Shown here piece by piece: positions 4,731 through 8,209 of a stretch of DNA of 24,000 nucleotides. The notes beneath the pieces are model-generated. The model saw only the letters and a program-made list of their open reading frames with translations, ran no database searches and was not told where the DNA came from. This DNA comes from Serpentinicella alkaliphila (GTDB lineage: Bacteria; Bacillota; Clostridia; Peptostreptococcales; Natronincolaceae): the NCBI RefSeq assembly GCF_018141405.1, contig NZ_CP058648.1, positions 2,482,502 to 2,506,501 of the forward strand, written 5' to 3'. Both the position numbers and the translations under genes were made by a program. Positions within the stretch are counted from its first letter, which is position 1, and each line of letters starts with the position of its first letter.

Positions 4731-5408
4731 ATGCAAAAATTCAATTCATCTCAGACTATTGGAGAGATTGTAGCTATAATACCCGAGGCAGATAAATTAT
4801 TTATGGAGTACGAAATAGATTCTTATATATATGAGTATATTACTTTAGGAGATGTAATTGAGCAGAAAAAACTTGATAAATGTGAAGTACTAGAAAAACT
4901 AAATAATATATACAACAAAGATTCTAAAAAATGCGATGCATTTAAATTCATGGAAATGTCACCATGCCAGATTGCAGATAATATTATAAATAATCATAAT
5001 AATTCTATATGTTGTAAGCTCCATGAAGTTTGTAATTTGTTAAGTCATGCGTTGGAAACTAGTGGACCAGAACCAAATAATTTAATGAGTATTAATGATA
5101 AAATAATTAAATTACAAAATGCCCTGCAGCAGGCTATGGAGAAAGAACAAAAGCTGATAGGGACAAATATCAATAAATTCGATTGTATGCCCTGTTTTGA
5201 ACATAGTTGTATGAGTGAGTTACTGAATGAAATTGAAATTGAAAATAACGTGGTAGATTATACGCTAAAGGATATCAAAGAGATTTCTAGGAATTGTAGA
5301 ATACCTAAGAGTGAGTTCGCATCCTATTGGCAAATTGTTAAAATATTAGAGGAATTAAAAGATAGTATGGTCAAAAAAAGTAACAATATGAGTGATCTTT
5401 TTATTTAG
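4731..5408 (+). CDS. RIC/ScdA(YtfE)-like protein with degenerate di-iron site, Cys-rich
   Basis: 225-aa ORF with an AGGAGG RBS. The N-terminus QTIGEIVAIIPEADKLFMEYEID...LDKCEVLEKLN aligns by eye to the ScdA_N/DUF542 region of YtfE/ScdA ([27 protein letters not shown]...). The C-terminal part is colinear with the hemerythrin-like domain. Most His/Glu iron ligands and the CCGG motif are replaced. The comparison is from memory of YtfE/ScdA sequences. Confidence 0.5.
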   Translation: MQKFNSSQTIGEIVAIIPEADKLFMEYEIDSYIYEYITLGDVIEQKKLDKCEVLEKLNNIYNKDSKKCDAFKFMEMSPCQIADNIINNHNNSICCKLHEVCNLLSHALETSGPEPNNLMSINDKIIKLQNALQQAMEKEQKLIGTNINKFDCMPCFEHSCMSELLNEIEIENNVVDYTLKDIKEISRNCRIPKSEFASYWQIVKILEELKDSMVKKSNNMSDLFI

Positions 5409-5591
5409 AGTGTTTAATTTTGAAAACTGCAAGTAGCCTCCTTTATTGGAAAGGGCCTGGAGTAATGAAGTGAATTTCTCTTGGCTCTTTAATTCTTTAC
5501 TTGTAATGTATAATATAATTAATTTCAGTTTATTTGGATATATATTTGTTAAATATAATAACGTATATTAAATAGAACTGATTAGAAGATA

Positions 5592-5620
5592 TTGACTGGA
5601 ATAAAATAATAGTCTATGGT
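5592..5620 (+). promoter_or_regulatory. Sigma-A type promoter upstream of arsD
   Basis: TTGACT (5592-5597), 17-nt spacer, TATGGT (5615-5620), about 70 nt upstream of the arsD ATG. Confidence 0.55.
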
Positions 5621-5625
5621 TATAG

Positions 5626-5645
5626 ATATAGATAATCATCTATAT
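5626..5645. promoter_or_regulatory. Perfect 8-4-8 inverted repeat, candidate repressor operator
   Basis: ATATAGAT-AATC-ATCTATAT starts 6 nt after the putative -10, so it overlaps the expected transcription start of arsD. Confidence 0.5.
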
Positions 5646-5688
5646 AACATATAAAAAGTTTAATTAAGATTAAAAAGGAGAGGTTTAT

Positions 5689-6054
5689 ATGAAGAAAATG
5701 ATTATTTTTGAACCTGCAATGTGTTGTTCTACTGGGGTTTGTGGCCCATCTGTAGATGAAGAACTGTTAAGAGTTACGACAGTTATAAATAATTTAAAAA
5801 GTAATGGAATTATTGTTGAAAGATATAACTTAACTAGCAGCCCTCAAATGTTTATCGATAATAAATTAATTAATGAAATAATTAATAAAGAGGGTGTTGA
5901 TGCTCTCCCAGTGACTGTAGTAGATGGTGAGGTTGTTAAAACAAAAGAGTATCCAACTGATCTAGAGTTTTGTGATTTTCTACATGTGACTGAGCATAAT
6001 CTTATGCCAGCTAAAAAATCCTGTGAAGCATGCAGTTTAAAATGTGGGCATTAG
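5689..6054 (+). CDS. arsD: ArsD arsenical metallochaperone / trans-acting repressor family
   Basis: 121 aa. The N-terminus MIIFEPAMCCSTGVCGPSVDEEL...VERYNL...P..F..N...LPVTVVDGEVV is near-colinear with plasmid R773 ArsD (MVFDPAMCCSTGVCGTDVDQAL...IERFNL). Cys12, Cys13 and Cys18 are present. AAGGAGAGG RBS. Confidence 0.9.
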   Translation: MKKMIIFEPAMCCSTGVCGPSVDEELLRVTTVINNLKSNGIIVERYNLTSSPQMFIDNKLINEIINKEGVDALPVTVVDGEVVKTKEYPTDLEFCDFLHVTEHNLMPAKKSCEACSLKCGH

Positions 6055-6108
6055 GGTCTAGTAATAGATAAATGCCTTAAATTAATGAAGAATATTATTA
6101 GTTAAAAT

Positions 6109-6149
6109 GGTAGGGTTAGAATGGTACTAGCCCTACCTAATATTTTTTT
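6109..6149 (+). terminator. Rho-independent terminator of arsD
   Basis: 11-bp stem GGTAGGGTTAG / CTAGCCCTACC (one G-U pair), 7-nt loop, then TAATATTTTTTT. Confidence 0.8.
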
Positions 6150-6270
6150 GTATTTAGATAGGCATTAAAATGATTTAAATATAAGTATACTATGCCTAAG
6201 TAAGAATCAAAGCTAAGTTGAGATTCAAAAAATATTTTACTATTTTTTGGTTATATTTTTATAAATATAG

Positions 6271-6300
6271 TTGCAAAATACAATTATTGCATAATATAAT
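6271..6300 (+). promoter_or_regulatory. Promoter of marR-hgcAB
   Basis: TTGCAA (6271-6276), 18-nt spacer, TATAAT (6295-6300), directly upstream of the GGAGGTG RBS (6308-6314). Confidence 0.55.
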
Positions 6301-6307
6301 TATTGTA
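6279..6307. promoter_or_regulatory. 29-bp imperfect palindrome, candidate MarR autoregulatory operator
   Basis: TACAATTATTGCATAATATAATTATTGTA. 11 of 14 symmetric positions pair and the outer 6 bp are perfect (TACAAT/ATTGTA). It overlaps the -10 box. Confidence 0.45.
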
Positions 6308-6318
6308 GGAGGTGATTA

Positions 6319-6768
6319 ATGTTGAAAGATATAAAAGCTTATGAAAAACTTAGGGAAATAATAAGAATCTTTGAAAGAAATCTTGGAGCATTAAAGGCAA
6401 ATGAAATTACTTGCTGTGGAATTACGATGGCTCAGTGTCATGCGTTAGTAGAGATTGGTAGAGCAGAGAATATTTCATTAAATGAATTAGCCAATATATT
6501 AGATTTAGATAATAGTACTATGAGTAGAACAGTAAATGGCCTAGTAGATAATGGGTATGCTAAAAGAGATATAAACCCTAAGGATAGAAGGTATGTCACT
6601 ATTTCTTTAGAGGAAAAGGGCTATGGACTTTTTGAGGGGATTGAGAGTGAGATGAATGAATATTTTAAGAAGGTGTATGAAACTATACCAGAAAAGAAAA
6701 GGGATCAGGTCATTGAGAGTTTAGAAATTCTGTTGAAATCAATTAAAATAAATGATTGTTGTAAATAA
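6319..6768 (+). CDS. MarR family transcriptional regulator with extra cysteine clusters
   Basis: 149 aa. Winged-HTH layout: GITMAQCHALVEIGRAENISLNELANILDLDNSTMSRTVNGLVDNGYAKRDINPKDRRYVTISLEEKG. Cys32-Cys33 (6412-6417), Cys40 (6436-6438), and C-terminal Cys147-Cys148 (6757-6762). Confidence 0.85.
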   Translation: MLKDIKAYEKLREIIRIFERNLGALKANEITCCGITMAQCHALVEIGRAENISLNELANILDLDNSTMSRTVNGLVDNGYAKRDINPKDRRYVTISLEEKGYGLFEGIESEMNEYFKKVYETIPEKKRDQVIESLEILLKSIKINDCCK

Positions 6769-6795
6769 TAGGTTATTTTGAAAAGGGGGGTATAA

Positions 6796-7896
6796 ATGTG
6801 GGAATTAGAAAGAAATAAAGATAAGTGCTGTTCTAATGAAAAAGAAATAGACAGTAGTTTAAGTTTTCAAAATCCAAATAGACACTGGATTGTCGGCGAA
6901 ATTTATACACCAATTTGTAAAGTGTTGCAGGTTTCAACTAAGCTGACTATTTTTGACACAATTTACTCTTGGAAGGTTCGCTGGGGAATAAATAGGATGA
7001 ATTACAAAGTTGATCCAGGTATATATTGTATTGGAAATCCAGATGACAAATCCCCAGTACTCGTTACTGCAAACTATAAGATGAGTTTTGATATGTTGAG
7101 AAAAGAATTAAGTGATAAAGATGCTTGGATATTAGTTTTGGACACAAAAGGAGTTAATGTATGGTGTGCTGCTGGTAAAGGAACTTTCGGAACCGATGAG
7201 CTTGTAAGTAAGATCAAAAGTACTAGGTTGTTAGAACTTGTTTCTCACAGAACTATAATTTTACCTCAACTAGGTGCACCTGGTATCTCCGCCCATGAAG
7301 TGTACAAAAGGACTGGTTTTAAGGTAATATACGGACCTGTCAGGGCTTCAGATATAAAAGAATTTTTAAAGAATAATCTGGTTGCAACGCCACAAATGAG
7401 GAAGGTTAATTTTAATATTTTTGATAGATTAATTTTAACTCCAATTGAGATAGTAAATTTAATAAAACCATCTATCTATATAATAAGTACGGCATTTTCT
7501 TTGAATTTACTCACTAATACTTTTTTTAGCATTGAACTTTTTTCTGTAATTGATTTGTGTGGATATATTGGGGCATTAACAATAGGATGTATAATAGTGC
7601 CACTTCTTTTACCCTGGATACCAGGGAAATCCTTTGCCTTTAAGGGTTGGTTATTAGGACTATCATGGGTATTGCTTTTATTAGCTGTAAACAATTCAAT
7701 GATGGGTATACTAAGACAACTTAGCTATATGTTAATTTTCCCGTCCTTATCTGCATTTGTAGCCGTTAACTTTACAGGCTCATCAACCTACACATCCTTC
7801 TCTGGAGTAATGAAAGAAATGAAAATAGCTATACCATCAATTGCAATTAGTATGGTAGTAGGTATTTTCCTATTAATTTTAGGTAGTATAGTATAA
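6796..7896 (+). CDS. hgcA: HgcA, mercury methylation corrinoid protein
   Basis: 366 aa. The soluble N-terminal domain carries GVNVWCAAGKGTF (7150-7188; Cys124 at 7165-7167), matching the diagnostic N(V/I)WCA(A/G)GK cap-helix motif. The C-terminal part has about five hydrophobic TM helices. GGGGGG RBS. The start is 28 nt after marR and hgcB follows 7 nt downstream. Confidence 0.88.
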   Translation: MWELERNKDKCCSNEKEIDSSLSFQNPNRHWIVGEIYTPICKVLQVSTKLTIFDTIYSWKVRWGINRMNYKVDPGIYCIGNPDDKSPVLVTANYKMSFDMLRKELSDKDAWILVLDTKGVNVWCAAGKGTFGTDELVSKIKSTRLLELVSHRTIILPQLGAPGISAHEVYKRTGFKVIYGPVRASDIKEFLKNNLVATPQMRKVNFNIFDRLILTPIEIVNLIKPSIYIISTAFSLNLLTNTFFSIELFSVIDLCGYIGALTIGCIIVPLLLPWIPGKSFAFKGWLLGLSWVLLLLAVNNSMMGILRQLSYMLIFPSLSAFVAVNFTGSSTYTSFSGVMKEMKIAIPSIAISMVVGIFLLILGSIV

Positions 7897-7903
7897 AATA
7901 AGG

Positions 7904-8209
7904 ATGGTGAAACTTGTGGAGCATAAATATTTAAAAAATGTTGTAACATTATCTTTAGATGTAAACCAATGTATAGGGTGTAATATGTGTATTAATGTTT
8001 GTCCTCATGAAGTATTTACTACTAGTGATAAGAAGGTCCAGATACATAATAAGGATAAATGTATGGAGTGTGGGGCTTGTGCAAAAAATTGTCCAGTAGC
8101 TGCAATTGATGTTAAATCTGGAGTTGGGTGTGCATATGCAATCATAGTTGGGAAGATAACAGGTAGAGAGCCGGATTGCGGTTGTAGTGATGAGATAGAT
8201 TGTTGTTGA
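7904..8209 (+). CDS. hgcB: HgcB, mercury methylation 2x[4Fe-4S] ferredoxin
   Basis: 101 aa. CIGCNMCINVCP (7970-8005) and CMECGACAKNCP (8060-8095), the latter HgcB-typical C(M/I)ECGA. GVGCA Cys76 and a terminal Cys-Cys (8201-8206). An in-frame GTG at 7916 with a better-spaced RBS is an alternative start. Confidence 0.85.
   Translation: MVKLVEHKYLKNVVTLSLDVNQCIGCNMCINVCPHEVFTTSDKKVQIHNKDKCMECGACAKNCPVAAIDVKSGVGCAYAIIVGKITGREPDCGCSDEIDCC

What the first reader, a model, noticed from the sequence alone, without database searches (positions are those of the whole stretch)
4731..8209. Thiol-rich five-gene neighbourhood around hgcAB, possibly an undescribed metal(loid)-handling module
Five consecutive same-strand genes sit between core genes pfk and htpG. 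Four of them carry vicinal cysteines. ArsD has C12-C13-C18 plus the C-terminal CEACSLKC. MarR has C32-C33, C40 and the terminal C147-C148. HgcA has an N-terminal C11-C12 (6826-6831) in addition to the cap-helix Cys. HgcB has the terminal CC plus CGC. The RIC-like protein has nine Cys including a CC pair. Vicinal thiols are the classical soft-metal ligands for Hg(II) and As(III). This suggests a relay of sensing (MarR), chaperoning (ArsD, RIC-like) and methyl transfer (HgcAB). I am not aware that such a relay has been described as a unit. How Hg(II) is delivered to HgcAB is still an open question.
Basis: inference. Interest (0 to 1): 0.85.

Follow-up and report, generated by a model that had tools for sequence, protein, structure and literature searches.

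The report
Cysteine-bearing MarR regulator operon for hgcAB
The five cysteine-rich genes are real but are not one module: only marR-hgcA-hgcB is a conserved operon, and its MarR belongs to an undescribed cysteine-motif regulator clade that sits in front of either mercury-methylation (hgcAB) or arsenic-methylation (arsM) genes, while arsD and the RIC-like gene are local leftovers unrelated to hgcAB.

Summary
Five same-strand genes lie between pfk and htpG in Serpentinicella alkaliphila. They hold 4.4% Cys against 0.85% in the rest of the window, and each has a CC pair.

The five-gene "relay" reading is not supported. In 80 hgcA loci from other species, the RIC-like gene occurs 0 times and arsD once. 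A terminator and separate promoters and operators split the region into three transcription units. A close relative (L170) keeps RIC-like–arsD plus arsA fragments at the same site with no marR-hgcAB. The RIC-like protein has lost the RIC CCGG motif and the di-iron ligands, and its CC is not conserved.

What is conserved is marR-hgcA-hgcB. This MarR has an invariant CCG[IVL][TS]xxQCH motif and usually a C-terminal CC. A palindromic operator (TAGTTGCA-N3-TGCAACTA) overlaps its −35 box. The MarR sits directly upstream of hgcA in 20 of 80 loci and is mutually exclusive with the known ArsR-like hgcAB regulator (P=6e-5). In MarR-selected metagenome loci the downstream gene is arsM (24), hgcA (20) or another methyltransferase (4) in 48 of 59 cases.

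The best explanation is a metal(loid)-sensing, probably As(III)-sensing, autorepressor of methylation operons. The link between hgcAB and ars genes is already published.

The parts
6268..6286 (+). Candidate MarR operator: palindrome TAGTTGCAAAATACAATTA (consensus TAGTTGCA-N3-TGCAACTA), overlapping the -35 box
   Evidence: The palindrome is found with <=3 mismatches in 41% of 92 regions upstream of Cys-MarR genes against 0.44% of 7816 control windows, usually about 50 nt before the start codon. It is the only good match in the 24-kb window (1 mismatch). It is equally frequent before hgcA-linked (15/35) and arsM-linked (8/20) MarRs.
6271..6300 (+). Sigma-70-type promoter of the marR-hgcAB operon: -35 TTGCAA (6271-6276), 18-nt spacer, -10 TATAAT (6295-6300). 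A further inverted repeat TACAATTATT-N9-AATTATTGTA (6279-6307) spans the -10 box.
   Evidence: Best promoter match in 4300-8400, 10 of 12 positions. Inverted repeat I8. The same architecture is seen in aligned upstream regions of homologous loci.
6319..6768 (+). marR: Cys-MarR regulator (149 aa) with CCGITMAQCH (C32, C33, C40, H41) and terminal CCK (C147, C148)
   Evidence: PF01047 at 48 bits. Invariant C32, C33, Q39, C40, H41 in 25 homologs. AlphaFold pLDDT 87 with the MarR fold; the Cys lie in the alpha1-alpha2 loop, the first turn of alpha2 and the C-terminal tail.
6796..7896 (+). hgcA: corrinoid mercury-methylation protein with cap-helix NVWCAAGK (C124), an N-terminal extension with C11-C12, and a C-terminal membrane domain
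   Evidence: NF040863 at 464 bits vs cutoff 275. 100% identical to the S. alkaliphila HgcA. RBS AAGGGGGG lies before the ATG. N-terminal CC in 96 of 109 homologs.
7904..8209 (+). hgcB: 2x[4Fe-4S] ferredoxin with the extra conserved Cys (C76) and the C-terminal Cys-rich tail (C92, C94, C100, C101)
   Evidence: NF040864 at 127 bits vs cutoff 99. Two CxxCxxCxxxCP motifs in the translation. C-terminal CC in 56 of 78 HgcB from other loci.
5689..6054 (+). arsD: orphan arsenic metallochaperone gene with no arsA. It has its own promoter (5592-5620) and a palindrome TATAGAT-AATC-ATCTATA (5627-5644). It is not part of the hgcAB unit.
   Evidence: PF06953 at 152 bits and NF033727 at 135 bits vs cutoff 90. 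No arsA, acr3, arsC or arsR in the window. The relative L170 keeps arsD followed by arsA fragments. The promoter palindromes are conserved in three relatives and differ from the MarR operator.
6109..6137 (+). Intrinsic-terminator-like hairpin with a T-run after arsD. It separates arsD from marR.
   Evidence: The only terminator call in 4300-8400: 11-bp stem with 6 GC pairs, followed by a T-run.
4731..5408 (+). Degenerate RIC (ScdA/YtfE) paralog, 225 aa, 10 Cys. It lacks the CCGG motif and the di-iron ligands, evolves fast and is restricted to this lineage. It is not part of the hgcAB unit.
   Evidence: Below all curated cutoffs. Only 3 relatives above 33% identity among 1.8 billion representatives. 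Ligand positions are substituted and the CC is not conserved. dN/dS is 0.23, with dS about 5 times that of pfk. Found in 0 of 80 hgcA loci.

Best explanation
The region contains three independent transcription units, not one module.

The functional unit is the operon P(marR)-marR-hgcA-hgcB (about 6268-8209). The MarR is inferred to bind, as a dimer, the palindrome TAGTTGCA-N3-TGCAACTA over its own -35 box and so repress the operon. It is inferred to be released when a thiophilic metal(loid) is bound by the conserved cysteines. These are C32/C33 in the alpha1-alpha2 loop, C40 (with H41) at the start of alpha2, and the C-terminal C147/C148. The most likely effector is As(III) or a methylated As(III) species. 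The MarR would therefore be a non-orthologous replacement of the known ArsR-like regulator of hgcAB. The same sensor clade drives arsM (arsenite methyltransferase) operons in other genomes.

arsD is the remnant of a decayed arsDA operon. The RIC-like gene is a fast-evolving degenerate RIC paralog. Both are lineage-specific neighbours at this chromosomal site and have no demonstrable link to hgcAB.

Shown here: gene identities, operon layout, conservation of the Cys motif and the operator, context statistics, mutual exclusion with ArsR. Inferred: repression, the identity of the effector, and the roles of individual cysteines.
For: Operon structure. marR to hgcA is 27 bp and hgcA to hgcB is 7 bp.

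Forward synteny. A Cys-MarR lies directly upstream on the same strand in 20 of 80 hgcA loci. These include Bacillota, Aminicenantes, delta-proteobacterial and spirochaete MAGs.

Motif. C32, C33, G34, Q39 and H41 are invariant, and C40 and C148 are at least 90% conserved. A C-terminal CC is present in 31 of 36 hgcA-linked and 23 of 24 arsM-linked proteins.

Mutual exclusion with the ArsR-like regulator: 32 loci with ArsR only, 19 with MarR only, 1 with both, 27 with neither; odds ratio 0.04, P=6e-5.

Reverse test. In 59 dereplicated evaluable MarR-selected metagenome loci the gene directly downstream is arsM in 24, hgcA in 20, another SAM methyltransferase in 4 and something else in 11. arsM was confirmed with NF008823 at 297-305 bits against a cutoff of 263.

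Ars-island context. marR-arsM-GNAT-arsR-arsD-arsA-acr3 in Clostridium sp. HV4-5-A1G, and arsC-arsD-x-acr3-marR-hgcA-hgcB in L145.

Operator. About 95-fold enriched upstream of these MarRs, and found in both the hgcA and arsM contexts.

Structure. The MarR model is confident and places the Cys at the alpha1-alpha2 loop and the start of alpha2, and at the tail after alpha6.

Precedent. ArsR2 of P. mercurii ND132 is co-transcribed with hgcAB and responds to arsenic.
Against: There are no expression or binding data for any member of this MarR clade. The effector is inferred only from cysteine conservation and gene context.

11 of 59 loci have unrelated downstream genes. 27 of 80 hgcA loci have neither regulator.

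The operator matches at <=3 mismatches in only about 41% of upstream regions, so the consensus is loose or differs between subclades.

ND132 ArsR2 also responded to SAH. Many targets here are SAM methyltransferases and one is MetE, so a methyl-cycle metabolite effector is not excluded.

Cysteine-based MarR sensors are classically redox sensors.

The 80 hgcA loci are the ones closest to the query, mostly Bacillota, so the frequencies do not describe all hgcA carriers.
Confidence: 0.6

Rival explanations
1. One reading: all five genes form one thiol-based relay. MarR senses, ArsD and the RIC-like protein chaperone Hg(II)/As(III), and HgcAB methylates.
For: Cys and CC enrichment is real in all five proteins. 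The five genes are also found together in one related lineage (L001/L002). ArsD occasionally occurs near hgcAB elsewhere (L020, L145, L164). How Hg(II) reaches HgcAB is an open question (PMC7305189).
Against: The RIC-like gene is found in 0 of 80 hgcA loci and arsD in 1 of 80. L001 has three unrelated genes between arsD and marR. L170 has RIC-like-arsD without marR-hgcAB. Terminators, promoters and operators are separate. The RIC-like CC is not conserved at 74% identity and its metal ligands are lost. ArsD's known partner, ArsA, is absent here and is a broken gene in L170.
Confidence: 0.05
2. The Cys-MarR senses a methyl-cycle metabolite (SAH/SAM) or the methylated product, rather than a metal(loid). 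It tunes methyltransferase expression to methyl-donor supply.
For: 48 of 59 downstream genes are methyltransferases of three different kinds (HgcA, ArsM, other SAM methyltransferases), and one locus has MetE. ND132 ArsR2 responded to SAH as well as to As.
Against: An invariant CC...C.H motif plus a terminal CC is typical of thiophilic-metal sites, not of nucleoside pockets. Many loci are embedded in ars islands with acr3, arsC, arsD and arsA. HgcA uses a corrinoid methyl group, not SAM.
Confidence: 0.12
3. The Cys-MarR is a thiol-oxidation (redox, peroxide or electrophile) sensor like OhrR, MgrA or AbfR, or it binds an Fe-S cluster. Its position near hgcAB or arsM would then reflect stress control, not metal sensing.
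For: Most characterised Cys-dependent MarR proteins are redox sensors. Structural neighbours include OhrR and AbfR. Vicinal and terminal Cys can form disulfides.
Against: The hosts are strict anaerobes. The context is dominated by arsenic genes and metal(loid) methyltransferases, not peroxidases or thiol reductases. The clade replaces an ArsR-type metalloregulator at the same position.
Confidence: 0.13
4. The Cys-MarR senses Hg(II) itself, so hgcAB in these organisms is Hg-inducible, unlike in the model strains.
For: A Cys3(His) site would bind Hg(II) very tightly. The three-Cys site of MerR is a precedent (general knowledge). The model strains in which hgcAB was found not to be Hg-regulated carry ArsR-like regulators or none, not this MarR (for ND132).
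Against: The same clade, at 50-60% identity and with the same operator, controls arsM operons inside ars islands. That argues for an arsenic signal. Published work finds no Hg regulation of hgcAB (cited).
Confidence: 0.1

Closest known systems
ArsR2 ('HgcR'), the ArsR/SmtB-family regulator co-transcribed with hgcAB in Pseudodesulfovibrio mercurii ND132 (Gionfriddo et al. 2023; bioRxiv 10.1101/2022.10.17.512643)
   Same: A small Cys-bearing winged-helix regulator encoded directly upstream of hgcA on the same strand. It is linked to arsenic genes. It occupies exactly the position that the Cys-MarR occupies here, and the two are mutually exclusive. Many ArsR-like versions also carry a Cys-rich C-terminal tail.
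   Different: It belongs to a different protein family (PF01022 HTH_5, not PF01047 MarR). Its Cys site differs (CxC in the HTH region, four Cys in ND132). Its operator is different and its target range is unknown. The ArsR2 response to As and SAH is experimental; nothing has been tested for the MarR.
[quoted passage not shown]
   Same: The same kind of observation: a MarR-family regulator immediately upstream of hgcA in some bacteria.
   Different: It is only a one-sentence COG annotation. No Cys motif, operator, clade definition, arsM link or frequency was reported. I did not test whether those two proteins belong to the CCGxTxxQCH clade.
AdcR/ZitR, the Zn(II)-sensing MarR-family regulators
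   Same: A MarR fold in which a metal is bound by residues of the alpha1-alpha2 loop and the start of alpha2. The ZitR mutant entry 5yi0 is titled 'C30A H42A'. Here C32/C33 lie in that loop and C40/H41 at the start of alpha2.
   Different: ZitR and AdcR use mainly His/Glu ligands for Zn and are activated for DNA binding by the metal (from memory). Here the site is Cys-rich and includes a C-terminal CC, and the context is As/Hg methylation. No residue-level superposition was done.
Canonical ars operons (arsR-arsD-arsA-acr3/arsB-arsC, arsM) and the reported co-localisation of ars genes with hgcAB
   Same: arsD has the C12/C13/C18 metalloid site. acr3 (17 of 80) and arsC (13 of 80) cluster within 3 kb of hgcAB in other genomes, as published.
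   Different: In this window arsD is alone: no arsA, acr3, arsC or arsR. It has its own promoter, palindromes and terminator. arsD specifically is rare near hgcAB (1 of 80).
RIC / ScdA / YtfE di-iron Fe-S repair proteins
   Same: Full-length, weak homology at 20-27% identity.
   Different: The ScdA_N CCGG motif is lost, and so are the conserved HH, RVHG, ELEQH..KEE, EH..AG and HIHLENN ligand motifs. Scores are far below the curated cutoffs.

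Membership tests
HgcA (mercury methylation corrinoid protein) | Curated equivalog model NF040863 above its cutoff | tested here: met
   464 bits vs cutoff 275, covering residues 43-365
HgcA (mercury methylation corrinoid protein) | Cap-helix motif N(V/I)WCA(A/G)GK with the Co-ligating Cys | tested here: met
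   NVWCAAGK at residues 121-128, C124. The motif is present in 77 of 80 homologous loci.
HgcA (mercury methylation corrinoid protein) | hgcB ferredoxin gene immediately downstream | tested here: met
   hgcB starts 7 bp after hgcA
HgcB (mercury methylation ferredoxin) | NF040864 above its cutoff; two CxxCxxCxxxCP motifs; an extra conserved Cys after the second motif; C-terminal Cys | tested here: met
   127 bits vs cutoff 99. C23/26/29/33 and C53/56/59/63, plus C76 and terminal C100-C101.
ArsD (arsenic metallochaperone) | NF033727/PF06953 above their cutoffs, and the Cys12-Cys13-Cys18 metalloid-binding site | tested here: met
   135 bits vs cutoff 90 and 152 bits vs cutoff 27. C12, C13, C18 present and kept in L001 and L170.
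ArsD (arsenic metallochaperone) | Functional partner ArsA ATPase encoded adjacently (arsDA) | tested here: not met
   No ArsA domain in any window ORF, and tblastn with an ArsA fragment finds nothing. The relative L170 has only arsA fragments after arsD.
RIC / ScdA / YtfE (di-iron Fe-S repair) | Curated models above their cutoffs | tested here: not met
   TIGR03652 at 60.5 vs 204.7, NF008221 at 43 vs 254, ScdA_N at 29.4 vs 32.5
RIC / ScdA / YtfE (di-iron Fe-S repair) | N-terminal CCGG motif and the His/Glu di-iron ligands (YtfE H84, H129, E133, H160, H204, E208; the ligand list is from memory) | tested here: not met
   In alignment A3, CCGG is replaced by SYIYE. The H84 column is N, H129 is A, H160 is N, and HIHLENN is replaced by KKSNNMSD. 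Only the E133 column is kept.
MarR family transcription factor | MarR winged-helix domain above its cutoff and the MarR fold | tested here: met
   PF01047 at 48.4 vs cutoff 24.6. AlphaFold pLDDT 87 with six helices and a wing. All top Foldseek hits are MarR proteins.
MarR family transcription factor | Palindromic operator overlapping its own promoter (autoregulation) | tested here: inconclusive
   A conserved palindrome overlapping the -35 box is about 95-fold enriched upstream of clade members. Binding was not tested.
ArsR/SmtB-type hgcAB regulator (ArsR2/HgcR) | ArsR-type HTH_5 domain (PF01022) | tested here: not met
   No HTH_5 hit for the window's MarR. The ArsR-like proteins upstream of hgcA in other loci do hit PF01022.
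ArsR/SmtB-type hgcAB regulator (ArsR2/HgcR) | Encoded directly upstream of hgcAB and co-oriented with it | tested here: met
   27-bp gap, same strand. The same holds in 20 of 80 loci.
ArsR/SmtB-type hgcAB regulator (ArsR2/HgcR) | Transcriptional response of hgcAB to arsenic | not testable with these tools
   Needs qPCR or RNA-seq with and without As(III) in a carrier of the MarR type

The most novel reading that the evidence does not exclude
A single, previously undefined MarR clade (CCG[IVL][TS]xxQCH plus a C-terminal CC, with operator TAGTTGCA-N3-TGCAACTA) may be a dedicated thiophilic-metal(loid) sensor that switches on metal(loid) methylation in anaerobes. It would control arsM in some genomes and hgcAB in others. 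This would mean that Hg methylation by HgcAB in these organisms is regulated as part of an arsenic or soft-metal methylation response. In the same organisms the widespread Cys-rich N-terminal extension of HgcA (CC/CCC in about 88% of this HgcA clade) could be a second substrate-capture arm, working with the HgcB C-terminal Cys pair to deliver the metal to the corrinoid.
Probability: 0.35. Interest if true: 0.75.

Novelty: new variant of a known kind. Interest (0 to 1): 0.5.

Why it matters
What controls hgcAB expression, and what the native role of HgcAB is, are open questions in mercury biogeochemistry. So far only one regulator type, the ArsR-like ArsR2, has been tested.

This analysis shows that about a quarter of the Bacillota-like hgcAB loci sampled use a different, MarR-type, cysteine-bearing regulator. 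The same regulator clade, with the same operator, drives arsenite methyltransferase operons. This strengthens the proposed evolutionary and regulatory link between arsenic metabolism and mercury methylation. It also provides a concrete motif, operator and set of cultured carriers (Serpentinicella, Clostridium, Desulfosporosinus) for experiments.

It also removes a false lead: arsD and the RIC-like gene are not conserved partners of hgcAB.

Tried and rejected
1. Five-gene module. Rejected by the synteny test in 80 genomes, by the L001 insertion and by L170, which lacks hgcAB.

2. RIC-like protein as a metal chaperone. Rejected because its ligand motifs and Cys are not conserved and its distribution is extremely narrow.

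3. Shared regulon. I searched the MarR operator in the whole window. There is no copy before arsD or the RIC-like gene, and arsD has different conserved palindromes.

4. Exclusivity of the Cys-MarR for hgcAB. Rejected. Only about a third of clade members precede hgcA, and arsM is equally common.

5. RIC-like gene as a pseudogene. Rejected, because dN/dS is 0.23.

It was repeated with permitted homologs.

7. Literature searches for MarR with hgcA, MarR with arsM, the HgcA N-terminal Cys motif, and Serpentinicella with hgcA. These found only the passing mention in PMC10349881. PMC10132117 is not held, so the bioRxiv version was used instead.

8. Rfam and tRNA scans of the window found nothing.

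9. Residue-level comparison with the ZitR/AdcR metal sites could not be done with the tools. It is left as an untested lead.

Full report
**1. What is there**

The window comes from *Serpentinicella alkaliphila* (Clostridia, Natronincolaceae). Its HgcA and MarR are 100% identical to the NCBI proteins of that species.

| Coordinates | Size | Identity | Key scores |
|---|---|---|---|
| 4731-5408 | 225 aa | Very divergent RIC/ScdA-like protein | TIGR03652 60 bits vs cutoff 205 |
| 5689-6054 | 121 aa | ArsD | NF033727 135 vs 90 |
| 6319-6768 | 149 aa | MarR family | PF01047 48 vs 24.6 |
| 6796-7896 | 366 aa | HgcA | NF040863 464 vs 275 |
| 7904-8209 | 101 aa | HgcB | NF040864 127 vs 99 |

The enrichment is real. 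The five genes hold 4.37% Cys against 0.85% in the other 15 ORFs of the window. All five having a CC dipeptide has P=0.0012 in shuffles. The hgcA start codon has a strong RBS, so C11-C12 is translated.

**2. The region is three transcription units, not one**

The gaps between genes are 349, 280, 264, 27 and 7 bp. After arsD there is the only terminator-like hairpin of the region, at 6109-6137. The best promoter match (TTGCAA-18-TATAAT, 6271-6300) lies directly before marR.

marR-hgcA-hgcB is therefore a tight operon. arsD and the RIC-like gene stand apart from it. htpG has its own promoter-like site at 8231-8258.

**3. The synteny test**

I fetched 80 hgcA loci with ±10 kb flanks from species-representative genomes and scanned them with the window's proteins and with Pfam-verified seeds.

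| Gene | Loci (of 80) | Position |
|---|---|---|
| RIC-like | 0 | – |
| ArsD | 1 | L020, 3.9 kb away, opposite strand |
| Close MarR homolog | 20 | Directly upstream of hgcA, same strand |
| ArsR-like (PF01022) | 33 | Directly upstream of hgcA |
| Acr3 | 17 | Mostly within 3 kb |
| ArsC | 13 | All within 3 kb |
| ArsP | 4 | Mostly within 3 kb |

The ars/hgcAB co-localisation reported in the literature (PMC10349881) is therefore reproduced. But arsD specifically is rare near hgcAB, and the RIC-like gene is absent.

**4. The close relatives separate the neighbours from hgcAB**

- **L001/L002** (HtpG 88% identical, HgcA 60%). This lineage has the same chromosomal backbone, from LemA and pfk to htpG and the GGDEF/EAL gene, and all five genes. 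It also has three unrelated genes (peptidase M28, 2-hydroxyacid dehydrogenase, AP endonuclease 2) inserted between arsD and marR, plus an extra RIC paralog.
- **L170** (HtpG 88% identical, ArsD 75%). The layout is RIC-like paralog, RIC-like, arsD, two arsA fragments (168 aa and 91 aa), htpG, GGDEF/EAL. No marR, hgcA or hgcB was detected anywhere in the 7.7-kb locus.

So the RIC-like–arsD pair persists at this site without hgcAB. The window's orphan arsD is what remains of an arsDA operon. No arsA, acr3, arsC or arsR is encoded anywhere in the window.

**5. The RIC-like protein is a degenerate paralog**

Only three relatives above 33% identity exist among 1.8 billion representative proteins. 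All further hits are canonical RICs at 20-27% identity.

In the alignment with canonical RICs and E. coli YtfE, the ScdA_N CCGG motif and the conserved ligand motifs are substituted. These motifs are HH, RVHG, ELEQH..KEE, EH..AG and HIHLENN.

Its CC (94-95) reads YC in the 74%-identical homolog. Only C189 is kept as far as the 39%-identical relative.

The gene evolves unusually fast. It is 74% identical in a strain whose Pfk is 97% identical. Its dS is 0.62 against 0.13 for pfk, and its dN/dS is 0.23. It is therefore still under selection, but it is not a conserved metal site. A chaperone role in Hg/As handling has no support.

**6. The conserved element is the MarR**

*Motif.* All full-length hgcA-linked MarRs share CCG[IVL][TS]x[AS]QCH, which corresponds to window residues C32, C33, C40 and H41. 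Most also end in CC.

*Structure.* An AlphaFold model (pLDDT 87) gives the standard MarR fold. C32 and C33 lie in the α1-α2 loop, C40 and H41 in the first turn of α2, and C147/C148 directly after α6. Foldseek finds only MarR proteins, including the Zn sensor ZitR.

*Mutual exclusion.* The MarR and the ArsR-like regulator exclude each other upstream of hgcA: 19 loci with MarR only, 32 with ArsR only, 1 with both and 27 with neither (odds ratio 0.04, P=6×10⁻⁵). This is the pattern expected for non-orthologous displacement of one regulator by another. Most of the ArsR-like versions also carry Cys-rich C-terminal tails.

**7. A conserved operator**

Upstream regions of these MarR genes share a clear architecture. 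A palindrome TAGTTGCA-N3-TGCAACTA overlaps the −35 box. It is followed by a GATACAAT/TATAAT −10 box and often a third half-site.

With up to 3 mismatches the palindrome occurs in 41% of 92 upstream regions against 0.44% of 7816 control windows, typically about 50 nt before the start codon.

The window's copy is TAGTTGCAAAATACAATTA at 6268-6286. It is the only good match in the 24 kb, and none lies before arsD or the RIC-like gene. arsD has its own palindromes (ATAGAyA-N3-4-TrTCTAT, window 5627-5644), conserved in all three relatives.

**8. The reverse test shows what the MarR clade is for**

A metagenome scan with the motif found 568 relatives, of which the best 80 loci were retrieved. After dereplication at 95% identity, 59 loci had enough downstream sequence:

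| Gene directly downstream of the MarR | Loci (of 59) |
|---|---|
| arsM (NF008823, 297-305 bits vs cutoff 263) | 24 |
| hgcA | 20 |
| Another SAM methyltransferase | 4 |
| Something else | 11 |

The arsM operons usually continue with an ArsN-like GNAT and arsC. In *Clostridium* sp. HV4-5-A1G the layout is marR-arsM-GNAT followed by arsR-arsD-arsA-acr3. L145 shows arsC-arsD-x-acr3-marR-hgcA-hgcB.

hgcA-linked and arsM-linked MarRs are about as similar between the two groups (50% identity) as within them (52%). Nearest neighbours tend to share context (51 of 60). The operator is equally frequent in both groups.

This is therefore one sensor family deployed in front of two different metal(loid) methylation systems.

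**9. Mechanism**

*Shown:* operon layout, the conserved Cys/His motif, the conserved palindrome over the −35 box, mutual exclusion with the As-responsive ArsR-type regulator, and the ars-island context.

*Inferred:* the MarR dimer represses its own operon by occluding the −35 box. A thiophilic metal(loid) bound by C32/C33/C40, possibly with the flexible C-terminal CC, releases it. As(III) is the most likely effector, given the arsM and ars context and the ND132 precedent.

*Rivals:* a SAH or methyl-cycle effector, thiol oxidation or an Fe-S cluster, or Hg(II) itself. None can be excluded without experiments.

**10. Comparison with what is known**

The hgcAB–arsenic link, the ArsR-like regulator and the occasional MarR upstream of hgcA are all published. 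HgcB's terminal Cys pair has been proposed to acquire Hg(II) "from an unknown source" (PMC7305189).

I could not find the following described in the searchable literature:
- the definition of this Cys-motif MarR clade;
- its operator;
- its dual use for arsM and hgcAB;
- its mutual exclusion with ArsR.

The Cys-rich N-terminal extension of HgcA also appears undescribed. A CC is present in 96 of 109 close homologs, and in 94 of the 100 whose extension is at least 35 aa. The model protein from ND132 was described without it.

**11. Verdict**

The proposed five-gene relay is not supported, and part of its premise is already known. The finding does point to a real and apparently undescribed variant of hgcAB regulation.

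Interest is moderate (0.5). Novelty: new variant of a known kind.

Caveats: the 80 hgcA loci are those most similar to the query, mostly Bacillota. ORF starts in the loci were taken mechanically. All functional statements about the MarR are inferences.

Noticed in passing
window 6826-6831 (HgcA C11-C12); homologs P0004-P0123: A CC or CCC motif in the N-terminal extension of HgcA, before the WKxRWG core, is present in 96 of 109 close homologs, and in 94 of the 100 with an extension of at least 35 aa. I found no paper describing it. It could be a metal-capture arm analogous to the HgcB C-terminal Cys pair.
   Followed up: partly
window ~13825-15086, minus strand: A broken catalase gene. Separate short ORFs hit Catalase (PF00199), Catalase-rel (PF06628) and Catalase_C (PF18011), so a long-type catalase has decayed into fragments in this strict anaerobe.
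   Followed up: partly
L170:2432-3402 (Logan SRR3101103): In a relative with 88% identical HtpG, arsD is followed by two arsA fragments (168 aa and 91 aa) and then htpG, with no marR-hgcAB. This shows that an arsDA operon decayed at this site, and that hgcAB is present or absent between close relatives.
   Followed up: yes
window 4731-5408 vs L005:1940-2617: The RIC-like gene is hypervariable. It is 74% identical in protein sequence, with dS 0.62, in a strain whose adjacent pfk is 97% identical with dS 0.13. dN/dS is 0.23. This suggests allelic replacement or recombination at this gene rather than simple drift.
   Followed up: partly
window 5592-5644; L001:7950-8110; L170:1825-1985: The arsD promoter region carries conserved palindromes (ATAGAyA-N3-4-TrTCTAT; window copy TATAGAT-AATC-ATCTATA at 5627-5644) in all three relatives. 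They are distinct from the MarR operator. This is presumably the site of another regulator, possibly an ArsR encoded elsewhere.
   Followed up: partly
L027 (Acetivibrio mesophilus N2K1) 9047-11325: The only locus with both regulators: Cys-MarR, then an ArsR-like gene, then hgcA-hgcB. Its MarR ends in VVN instead of CC.
   Followed up: no
L092:1-1207; L164:701-5055: Variant arrangements. In L092 the Cys-MarR lies just downstream of an hgcB 3' end. L164 has two Cys-MarR genes, one before hgcAB and one before another SAM methyltransferase, next to arsD, arsR and acr3.
   Followed up: no
L111:5278-5748, L140:5812-6273: Some marR-arsM operons also encode a C_GCAxxG_C_C 'putative redox-active protein' (PF09719). 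This is another Cys-motif protein of unknown role in these methylation clusters.
   Followed up: no
window 17810-19417 (+) and 10342-10878 (+): A 535-aa ORF with no Cys and no Pfam hit. Also a 178-aa ORF with no Pfam hit that is conserved downstream of htpG in all relatives (74-80% identity).
   Followed up: no
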